Origin: Naegleria gruberi | Taxonomy: Eukaryota | Reading direction: 5' to 3' (one strand) | Assembly: GCA_000004985.1 (NCBI GenBank) | Contig: GG739129.1 | DNA length: 7,579 nt | Shown: piece after piece, positions 1 to 7,579 of the stretch | How positions within the stretch are numbered: position 1 is the first letter of the stretch | How the letters are laid out: every line of letters begins with the position of its first letter | Notes under the pieces: model-generated | The model's input: the letters and a program-made list of their open reading frames with translations, nothing else | Told to the model about the DNA's origin: nothing | The model's database searches: none | Made by a program: the position numbers and the translations under genes

Positions 1-81
1 GGTAGTCTTGAGGTTTAACCGAAAGTATACACTTGCTACTAGGTAGATCGTTATTACTAGTAGGTGGTGGACTAGGCTAGT

Positions 82-121
82 CAAAATTTGAATTCACACA
101 ATAATTCAGTGTGAAAAATCA
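82..121. repeat. Copy A of an imperfect direct repeat (caaaatttg ... agtgtgaaaaatca); contains a 7-bp stem hairpin at 93-115
   Basis: caaaatttg[aattcacacaataattc]agtgtgaaaaatca at 82-121. ttcacac (93-99) and gtgtgaa (109-115) are reverse complements with a 9-nt loop. Confidence 0.5.
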
Positions 122-258
122 GAGTGATGTTGATGATTAGAAGTATCTTCTGCACCTTCGAAAATGAATATTAAAGATTTTTCAAATTCGTAGGATATTT
201 TGGTGTAGCAGAGAAGCAGTTGTGATGATATTTTTTTCAGTCAAAGATTTAAAAATAA

Positions 259-360
259 ACTCGTCGTCGATATTACCACAAGCCTTGGCGGATTTTTTAA
301 ATTTGATTGGCGGCAAACTTTGCAGTAAAGGAAAACTGTAACTTCTCACTGAACCAATGT
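259..360. promoter_or_regulatory. Small CpG-rich island with two TTGGCGG motifs and two CCAAT boxes (candidate promoter elements)
   Basis: tcgtcgtcga at 261-270. TTGGCGG at 285-291 and 307-313, 22 bp apart. The rc of the second motif, TTTGCCGC, fits an E2F-like TTTSSCGC pattern. Inverted CCAAT (ATTGG) at 306-310 and direct CCAAT at 354-358. This is the only CG-dense patch in an otherwise AT-rich flank. Confidence 0.3.
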
Positions 361-541
361 TTACAAAACTGATTTGGTTTGCAAAAAGCCTTTTTAGTGT
401 TGGGCCGAAATTAGTGATTGTCTTTTTATTCCTTATGTTTATTTTTCTTATTAATGTAGTGAATAGAATTCAGTTTTATTTATTTGTTATTCAATGAATT
501 CAAAGAAGTCCTGAGTTTTATTCGAAACCACCACCTTCAAA

Positions 542-567
542 CAAATTTTGCAAGTGTGAAAAAATCA
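542..567. repeat. Copy B of the same imperfect direct repeat (caaattttg-ca-agtgtgaaaaaatca)
   Basis: caaattttgcaagtgtgaaaaaatca at 542-567 matches copy A except for the 17-nt internal segment present only in A and single-base length differences in the A/T runs. Confidence 0.5.
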
Positions 568-846
568 TGAAATGCCCAAAGGCAATTGAATCTCACCTAT
601 GGAATTCACAATTTAGGTCACACCCTAGTGCATTCTCTGATTCTGGAAATTATGGATCATTTGCTTGGAAATTTCAACTCCCTTTTCAAGTTCAAAGTTA
701 GCAGAGTAATGAAAAAGTATTGAAAGGTAAAAAATGGATATTACTGTAGGAAATAAGTAGATAATTGTATTTACAATGATAATAATTCTTCATCACTACG
801 GTTTTTCATCAACAAGCCTAAATATTATTATCTTTTGGAAACCCGA

Positions 847-918
847 ATGAGTTGCTGTGGTACCATAAATTGGTGCAAAATGACTTTATTTTTAATGGAG
901 TTTGCTCTATTGATTTTC
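847..918 (+). CDS. Possible 5' end of a coding exon running into the N block (frame 1; ATG at 847 or 880)
   Basis: Frame 1 is open from ATG 847 (MSCCGTINWCKMTLFLMEFALLIF...) to the gap edge. A second ATG at 880 has A at -3 and is followed by a hydrophobic stretch (MTLFLMEFALLIF), which is signal-peptide-like. Only 24 codons are visible. Frame 0 is open but has no ATG. Frame 2 is closed (TAA 866, TGA 881). Confidence 0.2.
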
Positions 919-3900
919 NNNNNNNNNNNNNNNNNNNNNNNNNNNNNNNNNNNNNNNNNNNNNNNNNNNNNNNNNNNNNNNNNNNNNNNNNNNNNNNNNN
1001 NNNNNNNNNNNNNNNNNNNNNNNNNNNNNNNNNNNNNNNNNNNNNNNNNNNNNNNNNNNNNNNNNNNNNNNNNNNNNNNNNNNNNNNNNNNNNNNNNNNN
1101 NNNNNNNNNNNNNNNNNNNNNNNNNNNNNNNNNNNNNNNNNNNNNNNNNNNNNNNNNNNNNNNNNNNNNNNNNNNNNNNNNNNNNNNNNNNNNNNNNNNN
1201 NNNNNNNNNNNNNNNNNNNNNNNNNNNNNNNNNNNNNNNNNNNNNNNNNNNNNNNNNNNNNNNNNNNNNNNNNNNNNNNNNNNNNNNNNNNNNNNNNNNN
1301 NNNNNNNNNNNNNNNNNNNNNNNNNNNNNNNNNNNNNNNNNNNNNNNNNNNNNNNNNNNNNNNNNNNNNNNNNNNNNNNNNNNNNNNNNNNNNNNNNNNN
1401 NNNNNNNNNNNNNNNNNNNNNNNNNNNNNNNNNNNNNNNNNNNNNNNNNNNNNNNNNNNNNNNNNNNNNNNNNNNNNNNNNNNNNNNNNNNNNNNNNNNN
1501 NNNNNNNNNNNNNNNNNNNNNNNNNNNNNNNNNNNNNNNNNNNNNNNNNNNNNNNNNNNNNNNNNNNNNNNNNNNNNNNNNNNNNNNNNNNNNNNNNNNN
1601 NNNNNNNNNNNNNNNNNNNNNNNNNNNNNNNNNNNNNNNNNNNNNNNNNNNNNNNNNNNNNNNNNNNNNNNNNNNNNNNNNNNNNNNNNNNNNNNNNNNN
1701 NNNNNNNNNNNNNNNNNNNNNNNNNNNNNNNNNNNNNNNNNNNNNNNNNNNNNNNNNNNNNNNNNNNNNNNNNNNNNNNNNNNNNNNNNNNNNNNNNNNN
1801 NNNNNNNNNNNNNNNNNNNNNNNNNNNNNNNNNNNNNNNNNNNNNNNNNNNNNNNNNNNNNNNNNNNNNNNNNNNNNNNNNNNNNNNNNNNNNNNNNNNN
1901 NNNNNNNNNNNNNNNNNNNNNNNNNNNNNNNNNNNNNNNNNNNNNNNNNNNNNNNNNNNNNNNNNNNNNNNNNNNNNNNNNNNNNNNNNNNNNNNNNNNN
2001 NNNNNNNNNNNNNNNNNNNNNNNNNNNNNNNNNNNNNNNNNNNNNNNNNNNNNNNNNNNNNNNNNNNNNNNNNNNNNNNNNNNNNNNNNNNNNNNNNNNN
2101 NNNNNNNNNNNNNNNNNNNNNNNNNNNNNNNNNNNNNNNNNNNNNNNNNNNNNNNNNNNNNNNNNNNNNNNNNNNNNNNNNNNNNNNNNNNNNNNNNNNN
2201 NNNNNNNNNNNNNNNNNNNNNNNNNNNNNNNNNNNNNNNNNNNNNNNNNNNNNNNNNNNNNNNNNNNNNNNNNNNNNNNNNNNNNNNNNNNNNNNNNNNN
2301 NNNNNNNNNNNNNNNNNNNNNNNNNNNNNNNNNNNNNNNNNNNNNNNNNNNNNNNNNNNNNNNNNNNNNNNNNNNNNNNNNNNNNNNNNNNNNNNNNNNN
2401 NNNNNNNNNNNNNNNNNNNNNNNNNNNNNNNNNNNNNNNNNNNNNNNNNNNNNNNNNNNNNNNNNNNNNNNNNNNNNNNNNNNNNNNNNNNNNNNNNNNN
2501 NNNNNNNNNNNNNNNNNNNNNNNNNNNNNNNNNNNNNNNNNNNNNNNNNNNNNNNNNNNNNNNNNNNNNNNNNNNNNNNNNNNNNNNNNNNNNNNNNNNN
2601 NNNNNNNNNNNNNNNNNNNNNNNNNNNNNNNNNNNNNNNNNNNNNNNNNNNNNNNNNNNNNNNNNNNNNNNNNNNNNNNNNNNNNNNNNNNNNNNNNNNN
2701 NNNNNNNNNNNNNNNNNNNNNNNNNNNNNNNNNNNNNNNNNNNNNNNNNNNNNNNNNNNNNNNNNNNNNNNNNNNNNNNNNNNNNNNNNNNNNNNNNNNN
2801 NNNNNNNNNNNNNNNNNNNNNNNNNNNNNNNNNNNNNNNNNNNNNNNNNNNNNNNNNNNNNNNNNNNNNNNNNNNNNNNNNNNNNNNNNNNNNNNNNNNN
2901 NNNNNNNNNNNNNNNNNNNNNNNNNNNNNNNNNNNNNNNNNNNNNNNNNNNNNNNNNNNNNNNNNNNNNNNNNNNNNNNNNNNNNNNNNNNNNNNNNNNN
3001 NNNNNNNNNNNNNNNNNNNNNNNNNNNNNNNNNNNNNNNNNNNNNNNNNNNNNNNNNNNNNNNNNNNNNNNNNNNNNNNNNNNNNNNNNNNNNNNNNNNN
3101 NNNNNNNNNNNNNNNNNNNNNNNNNNNNNNNNNNNNNNNNNNNNNNNNNNNNNNNNNNNNNNNNNNNNNNNNNNNNNNNNNNNNNNNNNNNNNNNNNNNN
3201 NNNNNNNNNNNNNNNNNNNNNNNNNNNNNNNNNNNNNNNNNNNNNNNNNNNNNNNNNNNNNNNNNNNNNNNNNNNNNNNNNNNNNNNNNNNNNNNNNNNN
3301 NNNNNNNNNNNNNNNNNNNNNNNNNNNNNNNNNNNNNNNNNNNNNNNNNNNNNNNNNNNNNNNNNNNNNNNNNNNNNNNNNNNNNNNNNNNNNNNNNNNN
3401 NNNNNNNNNNNNNNNNNNNNNNNNNNNNNNNNNNNNNNNNNNNNNNNNNNNNNNNNNNNNNNNNNNNNNNNNNNNNNNNNNNNNNNNNNNNNNNNNNNNN
3501 NNNNNNNNNNNNNNNNNNNNNNNNNNNNNNNNNNNNNNNNNNNNNNNNNNNNNNNNNNNNNNNNNNNNNNNNNNNNNNNNNNNNNNNNNNNNNNNNNNNN
3601 NNNNNNNNNNNNNNNNNNNNNNNNNNNNNNNNNNNNNNNNNNNNNNNNNNNNNNNNNNNNNNNNNNNNNNNNNNNNNNNNNNNNNNNNNNNNNNNNNNNN
3701 NNNNNNNNNNNNNNNNNNNNNNNNNNNNNNNNNNNNNNNNNNNNNNNNNNNNNNNNNNNNNNNNNNNNNNNNNNNNNNNNNNNNNNNNNNNNNNNNNNNN
3801 NNNNNNNNNNNNNNNNNNNNNNNNNNNNNNNNNNNNNNNNNNNNNNNNNNNNNNNNNNNNNNNNNNNNNNNNNNNNNNNNNNNNNNNNNNNNNNNNNNNN

Positions 3901-6192
3901 NNNNNNNNNNNNNNNNNNNNNNNNNNNNNNNNNNNNNNNNNNNNNNNNNNNNNNNNNNNNNNNNNNNNNNNNNNNNNNNNNNNNNNNNNNNNNNNNNNNN
4001 NNNNNNNNNNNNNNNNNNNNNNNNNNNNNNNNNNNNNNNNNNNNNNNNNNNNNNNNNNNNNNNNNNNNNNNNNNNNNNNNNNNNNNNNNNNNNNNNNNNN
4101 NNNNNNNNNNNNNNNNNNNNNNNNNNNNNNNNNNNNNNNNNNNNNNNNNNNNNNNNNNNNNNNNNNNNNNNNNNNNNNNNNNNNNNNNNNNNNNNNNNNN
4201 NNNNNNNNNNNNNNNNNNNNNNNNNNNNNNNNNNNNNNNNNNNNNNNNNNNNNNNNNNNNNNNNNNNNNNNNNNNNNNNNNNNNNNNNNNNNNNNNNNNN
4301 NNNNNNNNNNNNNNNNNNNNNNNNNNNNNNNNNNNNNNNNNNNNNNNNNNNNNNNNNNNNNNNNNNNNNNNNNNNNNNNNNNNNNNNNNNNNNNNNNNNN
4401 NNNNNNNNNNNNNNNNNNNNNNNNNNNNNNNNNNNNNNNNNNNNNNNNNNNNNNNNNNNNNNNNNNNNNNNNNNNNNNNNNNNNNNNNNNNNNNNNNNNN
4501 NNNNNNNNNNNNNNNNNNNNNNNNNNNNNNNNNNNNNNNNNNNNNNNNNNNNNNNNNNNNNNNNNNNNNNNNNNNNNNNNNNNNNNNNNNNNNNNNNNNN
4601 NNNNNNNNNNNNNNNNNNNNNNNNNNNNNNNNNNNNNNNNNNNNNNNNNNNNNNNNNNNNNNNNNNNNNNNNNNNNNNNNNNNNNNNNNNNNNNNNNNNN
4701 NNNNNNNNNNNNNNNNNNNNNNNNNNNNNNNNNNNNNNNNNNNNNNNNNNNNNNNNNNNNNNNNNNNNNNNNNNNNNNNNNNNNNNNNNNNNNNNNNNNN
4801 NNNNNNNNNNNNNNNNNNNNNNNNNNNNNNNNNNNNNNNNNNNNNNNNNNNNNNNNNNNNNNNNNNNNNNNNNNNNNNNNNNNNNNNNNNNNNNNNNNNN
4901 NNNNNNNNNNNNNNNNNNNNNNNNNNNNNNNNNNNNNNNNNNNNNNNNNNNNNNNNNNNNNNNNNNNNNNNNNNNNNNNNNNNNNNNNNNNNNNNNNNNN
5001 NNNNNNNNNNNNNNNNNNNNNNNNNNNNNNNNNNNNNNNNNNNNNNNNNNNNNNNNNNNNNNNNNNNNNNNNNNNNNNNNNNNNNNNNNNNNNNNNNNNN
5101 NNNNNNNNNNNNNNNNNNNNNNNNNNNNNNNNNNNNNNNNNNNNNNNNNNNNNNNNNNNNNNNNNNNNNNNNNNNNNNNNNNNNNNNNNNNNNNNNNNNN
5201 NNNNNNNNNNNNNNNNNNNNNNNNNNNNNNNNNNNNNNNNNNNNNNNNNNNNNNNNNNNNNNNNNNNNNNNNNNNNNNNNNNNNNNNNNNNNNNNNNNNN
5301 NNNNNNNNNNNNNNNNNNNNNNNNNNNNNNNNNNNNNNNNNNNNNNNNNNNNNNNNNNNNNNNNNNNNNNNNNNNNNNNNNNNNNNNNNNNNNNNNNNNN
5401 NNNNNNNNNNNNNNNNNNNNNNNNNNNNNNNNNNNNNNNNNNNNNNNNNNNNNNNNNNNNNNNNNNNNNNNNNNNNNNNNNNNNNNNNNNNNNNNNNNNN
5501 NNNNNNNNNNNNNNNNNNNNNNNNNNNNNNNNNNNNNNNNNNNNNNNNNNNNNNNNNNNNNNNNNNNNNNNNNNNNNNNNNNNNNNNNNNNNNNNNNNNN
5601 NNNNNNNNNNNNNNNNNNNNNNNNNNNNNNNNNNNNNNNNNNNNNNNNNNNNNNNNNNNNNNNNNNNNNNNNNNNNNNNNNNNNNNNNNNNNNNNNNNNN
5701 NNNNNNNNNNNNNNNNNNNNNNNNNNNNNNNNNNNNNNNNNNNNNNNNNNNNNNNNNNNNNNNNNNNNNNNNNNNNNNNNNNNNNNNNNNNNNNNNNNNN
5801 NNNNNNNNNNNNNNNNNNNNNNNNNNNNNNNNNNNNNNNNNNNNNNNNNNNNNNNNNNNNNNNNNNNNNNNNNNNNNNNNNNNNNNNNNNNNNNNNNNNN
5901 NNNNNNNNNNNNNNNNNNNNNNNNNNNNNNNNNNNNNNNNNNNNNNNNNNNNNNNNNNNNNNNNNNNNNNNNNNNNNNNNNNNNNNNNNNNNNNNNNNNN
6001 NNNNNNNNNNNNNNNNNNNNNNNNNNNNNNNNNNNNNNNNNNNNNNNNNNNNNNNNNNNNNNNNNNNNNNNNNNNNNNNNNNNNNNNNNNNNNNNNNNNN
6101 NNNNNNNNNNNNNNNNNNNNNNNNNNNNNNNNNNNNNNNNNNNNNNNNNNNNNNNNNNNNNNNNNNNNNNNNNNNNNNNNNNNNNNNNNNNN
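919..6192. other. 5274-nt run of N (assembly gap or hard-masked region)
   Basis: Seen directly: uninterrupted 'n' from 919 to 6192. ORFs in the supplied track crossing it are poly-X artefacts. True length and content are unknown. Confidence 0.99.
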
Positions 6193-6962
6193 TCAGACAA
6201 GTGACTTTTGCATCTCTATTAGATGATAACCAAATGTTTGAAATTGCCACAACTACTTACAACCAACAAAAATCAGAAGAACCAGAACATTTAGCCAGAA
6301 TTGCTAAAGAATTTTCTGTAAAATCATTTTCTGTTTTAGAGTTATTGGACGTACTGGACAATGTTGATTATTCAAATTTATTGGAATATTTTGAAGATAT
6401 TAATGTGAAAAATACTAATTCAGTATTATCAAATAATTTACAATACTTGTATTTTATTGCTATTATTGAGGAAAATGGAAAAATTATTGATGCCTTGAAG
6501 TCAACTCCAAAATTAGAAACTATTAACATAGATGGCCAGAAAATATCCTTAACAAAAGACATGTACTATATTAATGGTCCTCTTCATAGAGCTTGTGTCC
6601 TTGAATATCTTCCAGCAATTCAATGGTATTCGAATAAGTATCCACATTTTCACGAAGAACAAGGCATTGATTGTGGTTATCCTTTAGAAATTGCGATTGA
6701 GAATAGAAATACTATTATTTTTGAGTGGATATTCAATAATTGCAATTTATCGAGTAATGTGTTGAGTAATGCATTGGTGACTGTGGCTGATATTAATGGC
6801 AGTGCCGAGTGGGCTCAAAATCTCATTAAAAAAGGGGCATCCATAGAATTCGTTCAAAAGTATGCAAAGGAAAATGGTAAACAACATTTAATTACATACA
6901 TTAACAAAAACTGTGAAGACAACAAATCTTGGAATTTCTTTAAATTTTTCAACAATAAATGA
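6193..6962 (+). CDS. 3' part of a protein-coding gene with a C-terminal ankyrin-repeat-like domain (5' end lies in the N block)
   Basis: 256 stop-free codons in frame 0 in an AT-rich sequence, TGA stop at 6960-6962. Translation ~6547-6880 (...NGPLHRACVLEYLPAIQWYS..., ...CGYPLEIAIENRNTIIFEWIF..., ...NALVTVADINGSAEWAQNLIKKGASIE...) fits the ankyrin pattern (G-TPLH-A, then a helix pair, then GA), three degenerate repeats. AATAAA overlaps the last two codons (6954-6959). Domain assignment is by eye, not by HMM. Confidence 0.6.
6954..6959 (+). terminator. AATAAA poly(A)-signal-like hexamer overlapping the last two codons of the ankyrin-like CDS
   Basis: aat aaa tga: AATAAA at 6954-6959 immediately before the stop. 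Confidence 0.35.
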
Positions 6963-7018
6963 TTAAATGATGAGGTTTAAATTTACTGAATCAAGTTGAA
7001 CCACATAGTAATTTGAGA

Positions 7019-7024
7019 TTTATT
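7019..7024 (-). terminator. AATAAA poly(A)-signal-like hexamer (minus strand) ~80 nt downstream of the kinesin-fragment stop
   Basis: The + strand tttatt at 7019-7024 reads AATAAA on the minus strand. It lies in the 142-bp convergent intergenic spacer 6963-7104. Confidence 0.3.
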
Positions 7025-7104
7025 GCTTGAAAGGATTTACTTCAGAGTTATCAACTTCCTTATACTTATTTCTTTTCATTTTCATTCTCAATGGTTGAAT
7101 AATC

Positions 7105-7579
7105 TTATTTGAAATCCATGTAGAGAATCGTAGATTGATTCGAAGAACTATCCTTGCTAAGACTTTCAACTCTAATGATGAAGATAGAATGGGATTGAGC
7201 AGGATCTTGATTTGTTCTTGTTGACAGTGAGAGCCTATTATTGTTTCCTATTTTGATTATATCAAGCATTTCATCTTCGGTTGTGACATATTCTTCTGTT
7301 AATCTATCAACGTAAACTCCTCTCTTTGGGGAATCAATTATAGTTAAATCTCTCTTTTCCTTATCAAATAAATCATTGATTTTTTCATTATAAATTTCGA
7401 GGAAGGAACAACCAATCTTATATTCAATATTCTCATCTCCACTTCTAATAATTTCAAACATTTCCTTTGCAGTTCTTGGAATTAATCCAAATAATTCTTC
7501 CTTGTCAAGTGATCCAATCATTGTATATGTTTTTCCTGCTCCTGTCTGTCCGTATGCCATCATTGTTACATTAAAGCCT
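7105..7579 (-). pseudogene. Kinesin motor-domain N-terminal half (P-loop to degenerate switch I), truncated before switch II; 5' end beyond window edge
   Basis: Minus-strand translation ...GFNVTMMAYGQTGAGKTYTM...LIPRTAKEMFEII...IEYKIGCSFLEIYNEKINDLFD...VYVDRLTEEYVTTEDEMLDIIKIGNNNRLSLSTRTNQDPAQSHSIFIIRVE...STILYMDFK* aligns colinearly with the kinesin-1 motor domain ([20 protein letters not shown]...IIPR...FHIKVSYFEIY...[24 protein letters not shown]...KLYLVDLAGSE). The frame stays open to the window edge at 7579, so the N-terminal ~80 aa lie outside. TAA stop at 7107-7105 where switch II DLAGSE should start. No GT splice donor near the stop, and only 142 bp to the convergent neighbouring gene. 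Confidence 0.8.

What the first reader, a model, noticed from the sequence alone, without database searches (positions are those of the whole stretch)
7105..7579. Kinesin motor fragment: intact P-loop, mutated switch I (SSRSH -> PAQSH), no switch II
Seen: the minus-strand ORF matches kinesin motor domains from the GFNVT..AYGQTGAGKTYTM P-loop through the switch I region. Where kinesins carry the near-invariant NxxSSRSHS, this sequence reads N-Q-D-P-A-Q-S-H-S (CCT GCT CAA TCC CAT TCT). A TAA stop falls at the position where switch II (LYLVDLAGSE) should begin: it reads LYMDFK*. The next gene ends 142 bp further on the opposite strand, so there is no room for the missing ~150 aa of motor core. 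No GT donor lies close enough to the stop to rescue it by splicing. Established: the switch I arginine and the switch II glutamate form the salt bridge needed for ATP hydrolysis in kinesins, so the Arg-to-Gln change is expected to kill catalysis. Inference: this is a recently decayed kinesin pseudogene or gene fragment (each of P/A/Q is one nucleotide away from common Ser/Ser/Arg codons), or a nucleotide-binding but non-motile pseudo-kinesin. The strong conservation of everything upstream of switch I argues the decay is recent or that the fragment is still under selection.
Basis: partly seen in the sequence, partly recalled or inferred. Interest (0 to 1): 0.55.

Follow-up and report, generated by a model that had tools for sequence, protein, structure and literature searches.

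The report
Truncated, disabled kinesin fragment in Naegleria
This is a real but broken piece of a kinesin motor gene on a tiny, mostly-gap scaffold of the amoeba Naegleria gruberi; it is already in the databases as "kinesin, partial", is most likely a dead gene remnant, and is ordinary rather than a new kind of motor.

Summary
The minus-strand ORF 7108..7578 matches the kinesin motor (Pfam PF00225, positions 73-225 of 327, E 4e-44). It aligns without gaps to kinesin-1 residues ~76-229. The P-loop is perfect (GQTGAGKT). Switch I reads PAQSH where SSRSH is near-universal. A TAA follows at the first residues of switch II, and the stop of a convergent ORF lies 142 bp further on.

The window is an entire 7,579-bp Naegleria gruberi scaffold, 70% of it N, so nothing lies beyond the edge. 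The 157-aa product is already RefSeq XP_002668333.1, "kinesin, partial". Similarity ends at a breakpoint, not at a lone nonsense codon, and no frame of the window holds any C-terminal motor remnant.

The fragment has no close relative. The best is 50% (Willaertia kinesin-1-like), and the intact N. gruberi kinesin-1B/X11 motors are 37-46%. It sits on a long branch and breaks 6 of 38 near-invariant columns.

Best reading: a non-functional relic of a divergent kinesin-1-like gene. Main rival: the truncation is a cloning or assembly artefact of a low-coverage scaffold. Interest is low.

The parts
7108..7578 (-). Kinesin motor-domain fragment of 157 codons. It is 5'-partial because it runs off the scaffold end. 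It equals RefSeq XP_002668333.1 / GenBank EFC35589.1, 'kinesin, partial [Naegleria gruberi]'.
   Evidence: Translation. Pfam PF00225 positions 73-225 of 327, E 4e-44. PDB kinesin-1 E 1e-32, gapless. Exact database identity and accessions.
7528..7551 (-). Intact P-loop (N1), GQTGAGKT.
   Evidence: Invariant G10 Q11 T12 G13 G15 K16 in alignment A1.
7189..7212 (-). Degenerate switch I (N2), NQDPAQSH. The PAQ codons CCT GCT CAA at 7195-7203 replace the near-universal Ser-Ser-Arg (kinesin-1 S201 S202 R203).
   Evidence: 148 of 149 nearest representatives have N..S[SA]RSH. P, A and Q each have frequency 0.000 among 226 motors, though that set was pre-selected for SSRSH.
7105..7116 (-). Homology breakpoint and stop: D155-F156-K157-TAA (GAT TTC AAA TAA), where relatives read (V)DLAG of switch II. 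Similarity to kinesins ends here.
   Evidence: MAFFT alignment A1. HMM match ends at fragment residue 154. Downstream frames show no kinesin similarity.
6963..7104 (.). AT-rich spacer of 142 bp (27% GC) between the two convergent stop codons. It has stops in all three minus-strand frames and no kinesin similarity.
6195..6962 (+). 3' end of a convergent gene: 255 open codons emerging from the assembly gap, then TGA. It is an orphan with only sub-threshold ankyrin-repeat hits. It occupies the space where the missing kinesin exons would have to lie.
   Evidence: Translation. P(open by chance) 1e-9 and coding-like codon-position composition. Ank_5/Ank_3/Ank_2 below cut-off. No homologue and not itself in the protein database.
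919..6192 (.). Assembly gap of 5,274 N joining two small contigs (1..918 and 6193..7579). It shows that this is a low-coverage mate-pair scaffold.

Best explanation
The feature is a non-functional relic (a truncated gene or unitary pseudogene) of a divergent kinesin-1-like gene in Naegleria gruberi.

Shown: it encodes motor-core positions 73-225 of the 327-position Pfam profile. In human kinesin-1 numbering this is roughly beta3/P-loop through beta7 (element names from my own knowledge of the fold). The P-loop is intact. The three catalytic switch I residues Ser-Ser-Arg are replaced by Pro-Ala-Gln. The coding similarity stops abruptly at the first residues of switch II, followed by unrelated AT-rich sequence and the 3' end of a convergent gene.

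Inferred: a deletion or rearrangement removed everything from switch II onward. That covers DLAGSE, the L11-alpha4-L12-alpha5 microtubule-binding face, beta8, alpha6, the neck and the stalk. It fused mid-motor sequence to 3' intergenic DNA.

Without the switch I Arg and the switch II Glu, the catalytically activating salt bridge cannot form. Without alpha4/alpha5 the product cannot bind microtubules. Without beta8, alpha6 and the other C-terminal core elements the core cannot close. So any product would be neither an ATPase nor a motor.

The 157 codons remain open and align to human kinesin-1 without indels, so the gene was constrained for most of its history. The excess of lineage-specific and otherwise unseen substitutions indicates relaxed constraint before or after the truncation.
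For: Identity and extent: (PF00225 positions 73-225 of 327).

Switch I loss. PMC4383081 states that SSRSH (201-205) and DLAGSE (231-236) are universally conserved and that R203-E236 form a catalytically activating salt bridge.

Breakpoint rather than a point nonsense mutation: alignment ends at D155/F156; no similarity after the stop in any frame.

No remnant of the C-terminal 120 HMM positions in any of six frames, with filters off and E<=100.

No room for the missing part: the convergent 255-codon ORF ends 142 bp away and is real coding sequence (P 1e-9). N. gruberi introns average 203 bp with 1.7 exons per gene (PMC8296547).

Relaxed or fast evolution: 6 of 38 conserved columns violated against a mean of 0.8, and more unique changes in 23 of 23 Tajima triples, p 0.0006-0.43.

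Redundancy: N. gruberi retains intact kinesin-1B genes Naegr_33335 and Naegr_72809 plus X11 (PMC2867816 supplementary file 3).

Genuine heterolobosean origin: the nearest relatives are Willaertia, Acrasis and Pharyngomonas kinesin heavy chains. GC is 31-32% against a genome value of 33%.

No vector sequence.
Against: The scaffold is tiny and 70% gap, so the junction at about 7105-7116 rests on very few Sanger reads. I could not inspect read support, so a chimeric clone or misjoin is not excluded.

An ORF that is open and free of indels over 157 codons is not what long neutral decay produces. Either the disabling events are recent or some constraint persists.

The relative-rate excess is modest and not significant with several outgroups. 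It also assumes the compared genes are orthologues, which is unproven.

No expression data could be consulted. The N-terminal ~75 residues are off the scaffold, so the state of the rest of the gene is unknown.
Confidence: 0.6

Rival explanations
1. The truncation is a cloning or assembly artefact. In the real genome the gene is full length, and the 1,387-bp contig is a chimeric clone or misjoin that attaches mid-kinesin sequence to an unrelated 3' gene end. The PAQ switch I would then belong to a complete, catalytically impaired kinesin-1-like protein.
For: The scaffold consists of two small contigs (918 and 1,387 bp) bridged by 5,274 N. That is typical of a handful of mate-paired Sanger reads left over from a whole-genome assembly. 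Similarity ends abruptly rather than by a point mutation, as a chimeric junction would look. The ORF up to the junction is clean, open and free of indels.
Against: No vector or plasmid sequence is present. The convergent arrangement with a 142-bp spacer suits a compact genome that is 57.8% coding. The junction lies about 470 nt from the scaffold end. By inference this is inside the good-quality part of an inward-pointing end read, so a misjoin would have to be a chimeric insert rather than an assembler error. No full-length version of this protein exists among 5.8 billion clusters or 1.84 billion representatives, although it should have been assembled and annotated elsewhere if the locus had normal coverage.
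Confidence: 0.2
2. Sequencing errors in low-coverage reads created the PAQ codons and/or the stop. The true sequence would have SSRSH and an open frame into DLAGSE.
For: Each of P, A and Q is one nucleotide away from common Ser/Ser/Arg codons (sequence). The scaffold is low coverage.
Against: Three substitution errors in nine consecutive bases, with the flanking codons perfect, is improbable. More importantly, no base-call correction restores the downstream sequence, because all three frames after 7105 lack any kinesin similarity. Many other unusual substitutions are spread along the fragment, so the divergence is not local.
Confidence: 0.05
3. The truncated product is functional. It would be a short protein that retains the P-loop and binds nucleotide, a 'pseudo-kinesin' kept under selection, for example as a regulator or dominant-negative partner.
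For: The frame is open, free of indels and coding-like over 157 codons. The P-loop is perfect. The three changes are concentrated on catalytic residues while 32 of 38 conserved columns are retained.
Against: The product lacks profile positions 226-327. From established kinesin structure these are switch II, alpha4-L12-alpha5, beta8 and alpha6, so the alpha/beta core is incomplete. Known catalytically dead kinesin-like proteins keep the whole fold. No orthologue or paralogue sharing this architecture exists anywhere, so there is no evidence of conservation. Lineage-specific substitutions are elevated.
Confidence: 0.07
4. The gene is intact and is rescued by splicing, read-through or a frameshift to a downstream exon that encodes switch II and the rest of the motor.
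For: N. gruberi has spliceosomal introns in a minority of genes. The 5,274-bp gap hides sequence.
Against: No usable GT lies between 7147 and 7066, and the nearest upstream GT is non-consensus. There is no motor-like sequence in any frame of 6193-7104. The frame after the TAA contains further stops (TAA, TAA, TGA, TAA). An intron would need to exceed 900 bp and contain the coding 3' end of an opposite-strand gene, against a 203-bp mean intron.
Confidence: 0.03

Closest known systems
Kinesin-1 heavy chain (KIF5/KHC) motor domain, especially the heterolobosean kinesin-1-like proteins of Willaertia magna (KAL9648276.1 / KAL9656887.1), Acrasis kona (KAL0479395.1) and Pharyngomonas kirbyi
   Same: These are the best sequence matches. 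PDB kinesin-1 scores E 1e-32 against E 6e-27 or weaker for kinesin-2, -3 and -4. Identity over the covered columns is 44-50% to the heterolobosean proteins. The P-loop is the same, the alpha2/L8/alpha3 region is collinear, and no indel is needed against human KIF5.
   Different: Switch I SSR is replaced by PAQ. Everything from switch II onward is absent, including the microtubule-binding face, neck linker, coiled-coil stalk and tail. The branch is longer, and 6 of 38 near-invariant columns are violated.
Intact N. gruberi kinesin-1B paralogues Naegr_33335 and Naegr_72809, and X11 Naegr_34430 (Wickstead et al. 2010, PMC2867816)
   Same: Same genome and same broad kinesin-1-like group. They show that the organism keeps functional copies.
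   Different: They are only 46%, 37% and 43% identical to the fragment over the shared columns. All three have canonical SSRSH and DLAGSE. The fragment is therefore not a recent duplicate of any of them.
The 'ND / divergent' sub-threshold kinesin models of N. gruberi in Wickstead et al. 2010 (9 of 39 models, e.g. Naegr_76756, Naegr_73429)
   Same: This is a class of partial or degenerate kinesin-like gene models already catalogued for this genome. A half-domain like this one would score badly in their whole-domain HMM but well locally, which is the pattern seen for Naegr_76756.
   Different: I could not establish which JGI model, if any, corresponds to XP_002668333.1. The sequences of the ND models are not in the files held.
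Catalytically inactive kinesin-like proteins (kinesin-11/KIF26, Costal2/KIF7-type, yeast Vik1/Cik1 motor-homology domains). This comparison rests on my own knowledge and was not tested here.
   Same: Degenerate nucleotide-hydrolysis motifs in a kinesin-fold sequence.
   Different: Those proteins keep a complete motor-like fold and microtubule binding, and they are conserved across species. This fragment lacks the C-terminal 102 of 327 profile positions of the fold and has no conserved counterpart.

Membership tests
Kinesin motor domain (Pfam PF00225) | Significant match to the family profile above the curated cut-off | tested here: met
   151.4 bits against a cut-off of 29.3, E 4.1e-44, but only profile positions 73-225 of 327.
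Kinesin motor domain (Pfam PF00225) | N1 / P-loop GQTxxGK[ST] | tested here: met
   GQTGAGKT at 7528-7551.
Kinesin motor domain (Pfam PF00225) | N2 / switch I NxxSSRSH, with the catalytic Arg (R203 in kinesin-1) | tested here: not met
   The sequence reads NQDPAQSH. 148 of 149 nearest representatives keep N..S[SA]RSH.
Kinesin motor domain (Pfam PF00225) | N3 / switch II DxxGxE (DLAGSE), with the salt-bridge Glu | tested here: not met
   Only D-F-K, then TAA. There is no DLAGSE-like sequence in any frame of the window.
Kinesin motor domain (Pfam PF00225) | Microtubule-binding elements L11-alpha4-L12-alpha5, then beta8/alpha6 to complete the core | tested here: not met
   Profile positions 226-327 are absent. 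No remnant was found in a six-frame HMM search with filters off.
Kinesin motor domain (Pfam PF00225) | N4 (RxRP) and the N-terminal beta1-alpha1 part of the core | not testable with these tools
   The ORF runs off the scaffold end at 7579. The window is the whole 7,579-bp scaffold and no other assembly holds the gene.
Kinesin-1 family | Motor groups with kinesin-1 rather than other families | tested here: inconclusive
   The best PDB and database hits are kinesin-1/KIF5-like, but at only 37-50% identity. No phylogeny was made, and half a motor on a long branch is hard to place.
Kinesin-1 family | Neck linker, coiled-coil stalk and cargo-binding tail after an N-terminal motor | tested here: not met
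   The ORF ends at residue 157 of the fragment, and nothing downstream is related.
Pseudogene / truncated gene relic | Disabling lesions relative to functional homologues: loss of essential residues, premature end, missing domain parts | tested here: met
   PAQ in place of SSR, a stop at switch II, and 102 of 327 profile positions missing at the C-terminal end.
Pseudogene / truncated gene relic | Relaxed selective constraint (elevated substitution rate, dN/dS near 1) | tested here: inconclusive
   There is an excess of unique changes in 23 of 23 triples, but p ranges from 0.0006 to 0.43. 6 of 38 conserved columns are violated. dN/dS is impossible because no relative exceeds about 50% identity. 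The open, indel-free frame argues against long neutrality.
Pseudogene / truncated gene relic | The lesion is real in the genome (not an artefact) and there is no functional expression | not testable with these tools
   No read-level data, second assembly or RNA-seq for N. gruberi is reachable (searches found no independent copy).
Catalytically dead but structurally complete pseudo-kinesins | Complete motor-like fold retained and conserved across species | tested here: not met
   The fold is incomplete and no orthologue with the same features was found in any collection.

The most novel reading that the evidence does not exclude
The truncation is only an assembly or cloning artefact, and N. gruberi really encodes a full-length, lineage-specific kinesin-1-like protein with an intact P-loop but a Pro-Ala-Gln switch I. 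That would be a naturally 'hydrolysis-dead' kinesin that could bind nucleotide and microtubules without stepping, in an organism whose amoebae have no interphase microtubules. A less likely variant is that the truncated P-loop fragment itself is expressed and kept under selection.
Probability: 0.1. Interest if true: 0.35.

Novelty: already known. Interest (0 to 1): 0.12.

Why it matters
It matters little beyond annotation hygiene. The locus is already deposited as "kinesin, partial" (XP_002668333.1). The useful addition is that it should not be counted as a functional kinesin in repertoire studies of Naegleria, because switch I is disabled and the motor ends at switch II. It also has no close relative, so it is not a recent copy of the intact kinesin-1B genes.

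If the truncation proved real and the lineage could be traced in other Naegleria strains, it would be a small example of motor-gene loss in an amoeba that builds microtubules only for mitosis and flagella. If the truncation proved artefactual, a full-length kinesin with a natural SSR-to-PAQ switch I would be a modest curiosity for people who study motor mechanism.

Tried and rejected
1. Looking beyond the window edge is impossible. The window is the complete 7,579-bp scaffold, and an exact-product look-up found no other contig.

2. Using the neighbouring ORF as a handle on independent assemblies or on synteny failed. It has no homologue and is not itself in the protein collection.

3. Searching for a close paralogue or orthologue for dN/dS failed. 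The exhaustive representative search, the word-indexed search, a search seeded with the Willaertia full-length protein and a metagenome contig scan found nothing closer than about 50%. Note that the hits were all under 275 aa, so that search alone would not have excluded long relatives. One search does exclude them.

4. Rescue by frameshift, splicing or read-through is rejected.

5. A non-standard genetic code (TAA as Gln, as in ciliates) was considered at first sight of the AT-rich DNA. It is rejected because the organism is Naegleria (standard code; own knowledge), the downstream frame also contains TGA, and there is no kinesin similarity after the stop.

6. Repeat, transposon or RNA-gene explanations for the breakpoint found no support. 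There are no meaningful repeats, tRNAs or Rfam families.

7. Vector or plasmid contamination is absent.

8. The left contig 1..918 has no ORF over 55 aa and no Pfam match in any frame.

9. Linking the fragment to a specific JGI model in Wickstead's table was not possible. The accession is not mentioned in any searchable paper.

10. Structure prediction was not run. A predicted partial fold would not decide between the explanations.

Full report
WHAT THE WINDOW IS. The 7,579-base window is 70% assembly gap. A single run of 5,274 N (919..6192) joins a 918-bp contig to a 1,387-bp contig. The sequenced part is 31% G+C. The exact 157-residue translation of 7108..7578 on the minus strand is already in GenBank/RefSeq as EFC35589.1 / XP_002668333.1, "kinesin, partial [Naegleria gruberi]", on a contig of length 7,579. 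The window is therefore a complete, very small scaffold of the N. gruberi NEG-M draft genome (41 Mb, 33% GC; PMC8296547 Table 2). Nothing lies beyond the window edge, and the ORF is 5'-partial only because it runs off the scaffold.

CHECK OF THE OBSERVATION.
- The ORF reads GFNVTMMAYGQTGAGKTYTM ... RTNQDPAQSHSIFIIRVE ... STILYMDFK, then TAA.
- Pfam Kinesin (PF00225) matches at E 4e-44 over profile positions 73-225 of 327.
- Solved kinesin-1 motors match at E 1e-32 in a gapless alignment, query 1-153 on residues 76/77-228/229. PAQ lies opposite S201-S202-R203.
- The P-loop is at 7528-7551, switch I at 7189-7212, the CCT GCT CAA codons at 7195-7203, and the stop at 7105-7107.
- The convergent ORF stops at 6960-6962, leaving exactly 142 bp between the two stops.
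- No GT occurs on the minus strand between 7147 and 7066.
- Among the 149 nearest representative kinesins, 148 carry N..S[SA]RSH.
- The established background is also right. SSRSH (201-205) and DLAGSE (231-236) are universally conserved, and R203-E236 form the catalytically activating salt bridge (PMC4383081).

WHAT IS REALLY AT THE 3' END. The stop is not a lone nonsense mutation inside otherwise kinesin-like sequence. In a MAFFT alignment with the closest full-length relatives, the fragment follows them up to M-D-F-K* against (I/V)-D-L-A-G. After that point the downstream translation (DYSTIENENEKK*V*GS**...) bears no resemblance to SEKVxKTxAxGxxLxEAxxINKSL. With a gapless alignment, D155 sits one residue before the switch II Asp. 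Either way, similarity ends within about two codons of the stop.

I built a 353-position motor HMM from 150 full motors and searched all six frames of the window with filters off and E up to 100. The only hit was HMM positions 80-233, which is the fragment itself. Nothing matched the C-terminal 120 positions. So the feature is a homology breakpoint: mid-motor coding sequence abuts unrelated AT-rich DNA (27% GC).

THE NEIGHBOUR AND THE 'NO ROOM' ARGUMENT. On the + strand, 255 codons run open out of the gap to TGA at 6960-6962. Composition predicts P = 1e-9 for such an open frame by chance. It shows coding-like codon-position bias, as does the kinesin ORF (P = 3e-6). It has only sub-threshold ankyrin-repeat hits, no detectable homologue, and is itself absent from the 5.8-billion-cluster protein collection. 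It is an unannotated orphan gene end. N. gruberi genes average 1.7 exons and introns average 203 bp. An intron that skipped more than 900 bp of opposite-strand coding sequence into the gap would therefore be exceptional. I reject rescue by splicing, frameshift or read-through. The frame after the TAA also contains further TAA and TGA stops.

WHAT IT IS RELATED TO. The fragment is its own representative in a 50%-identity clustering of about 15 billion proteins. The best single-stretch relatives reach 46-51%. The nearest named ones are kinesin-1-like heavy chains of other Heterolobosea: Willaertia magna KAL9656887.1/KAL9648276.1, Acrasis kona KAL0479395.1 and Pharyngomonas kirbyi. The sequence is therefore genuinely heterolobosean and not a contaminant. 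A scan of JGI metagenome contigs found nothing above 45%.

Wickstead et al. (PMC2867816, supplementary file 3) list 39 kinesin models in N. gruberi. These include two intact Kinesin-1B (Naegr_33335, Naegr_72809), an X11 (Naegr_34430) and nine sub-threshold 'ND/divergent' models. From their trimmed alignment I computed identities over the columns the fragment covers. The values are 46%, 37% and 43% to the three intact N. gruberi motors, all of which have canonical SSRSH and DLAGSE. Intact members of the kinesin-1-like group share 51-80% with one another.

HOW CONSERVED IS IT? Over 38 columns that are at least 90% conserved in 226 motors, the fragment disagrees at six: E82D, M122T, S126P, S127A, R128Q and L154M. 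Other motors disagree at 0.8 on average (95th percentile 3.75). The comparison set was selected for SSRSH, so columns 126-128 are 100% conserved by construction; one search gives the unbiased 148 of 149. At 15 positions the fragment carries a residue seen in under 1% of motors. In Tajima relative-rate tests against six relatives and four outgroups, it has more lineage-specific changes in all 23 triples (ratios of about 1.3-3, p from 0.0006 to 0.43).

On the other hand, the frame is open for 157 codons and needs no indel against human KIF5. About 5.4% of possible point mutations in it would create a stop. My inference is that the gene was under protein-level constraint for most of its history. 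Constraint was then relaxed to a moderate degree, so the disabling events are not ancient. 'Recent' cannot be quantified.

MECHANISM (BEST EXPLANATION, about 0.6). This is a non-functional relic of a divergent kinesin-1-like gene.
- Shown: the intact P-loop, SSR replaced by PAQ, similarity ending at switch II, no downstream remnant, and the convergent gene 142 bp away.
- Inferred: a deletion or rearrangement removed the gene from switch II onward and fused it to 3' intergenic DNA.
- Consequences, from established kinesin structure and enzymology (PMC4383081, and own knowledge of the fold): there is no R203-E236 salt bridge. There is no switch II helix (N255/E250) or L12/alpha5 microtubule interface. 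There is no beta8/alpha6, so the core cannot close. Any product would be neither an ATPase nor a motor.
- Intact kinesin-1B paralogues remain in the genome, so loss of this copy would be tolerated.

RIVALS.
(a) Cloning or assembly artefact (about 0.2). The junction rests on very few Sanger reads of a leftover two-contig scaffold, and an abrupt loss of similarity is what a chimeric insert would show. Against this: there is no vector sequence, the gene arrangement is plausible for a compact genome, the junction lies about 470 nt from the scaffold end (by inference, inside the good part of an end read), and no full-length version exists in any collection. Under this rival the PAQ switch I would belong to a complete, catalytically impaired kinesin, which is the most novel reading not excluded.
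(b) Base-calling errors (about 0.05). They cannot restore the downstream sequence.
(c) A functional truncated nucleotide-binding 'pseudo-kinesin' (about 0.07). The clean ORF favours it, but the fold is incomplete and there is no conserved counterpart.
(d) Splicing or read-through rescue (about 0.03). Rejected as described above.

COMPARISON WITH WHAT IS KNOWN, AND NOVELTY. By sequence this is a kinesin motor fragment of kinesin-1-like affinity. It passes the Pfam threshold and has N1. It fails N2, N3 and the microtubule-binding half. N4 is off the scaffold and cannot be tested. It is not comparable to the known catalytically dead kinesin-like proteins, which keep the whole fold and are conserved across species (own knowledge). 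The locus is already deposited as 'kinesin, partial', and degenerate kinesin models in this genome were already tabulated in 2010. I could not tell which JGI model it is, and no searchable paper mentions the accession. I rate it 'already known' and of low interest (0.12). The practical message is that it should not be counted as a functional kinesin.

LIMITS. No read-level data, second N. gruberi assembly or expression data were reachable. Orthology of the sequences used in the rate tests is assumed. The family assignment rests on best hits and not on a phylogeny.

Noticed in passing
window 919-6192: 70% of the window is one run of 5,274 N. The 'window' is a whole two-contig mate-pair scaffold, so the very long ORFs that the ORF listing reports across 818..6962 are artefacts of translating N.
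   Followed up: yes
window 6195-6962 (+): An open frame of 255 codons (P about 1e-9 by chance, coding-like composition) is the 3' end of a gene running out of the gap. It has only sub-threshold ankyrin-repeat hits and no homologue, and it is absent from the protein collection. It appears to be an unannotated orphan gene end in N. gruberi.
   Followed up: partly
window 1-918: The left contig has no ORF longer than 55 aa, no Pfam match in any frame, no tRNA or Rfam hit and no repeats. It is apparently non-coding, unusual for a 58%-coding genome but unremarkable over 918 bp.
   Followed up: yes
P0121 / P0122 (Acanthoscelides obtectus CAH2016917.1, CAH2020867.1): The top-scoring representatives owe their scores to 7 and 3 separate matches of the same half-motor segment within one protein. 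These are tandemly repeated kinesin motor pieces in beetle gene models, probably annotation or assembly artefacts or a local amplification.
   Followed up: no
P0126 vs P0270 (Willaertia magna KAL9656887.1, KAL9648276.1): Two nearly identical Willaertia kinesin-1-like entries sit on different contigs (234 kb and 42 kb). One is a 695-aa partial model and they differ by at least one residue (T/I near alignment column 690). They look like haplotigs or a very recent duplication.
   Followed up: no
The word-indexed protein search returned only hits shorter than 275 aa for the 157-aa query, so full-length relatives were invisible there. Only the exhaustive representative search showed them. This affects how absence of hits from that tool should be interpreted.
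   Followed up: partly
window 7040-7104 (-): Immediately after the stop the minus strand is A-rich, with AATAAG / AAATAAG motifs (aaataagattatt..., gaaataagtataagg). These could act as polyadenylation-like signals if the truncated ORF is transcribed. This was not tested.
   Followed up: no
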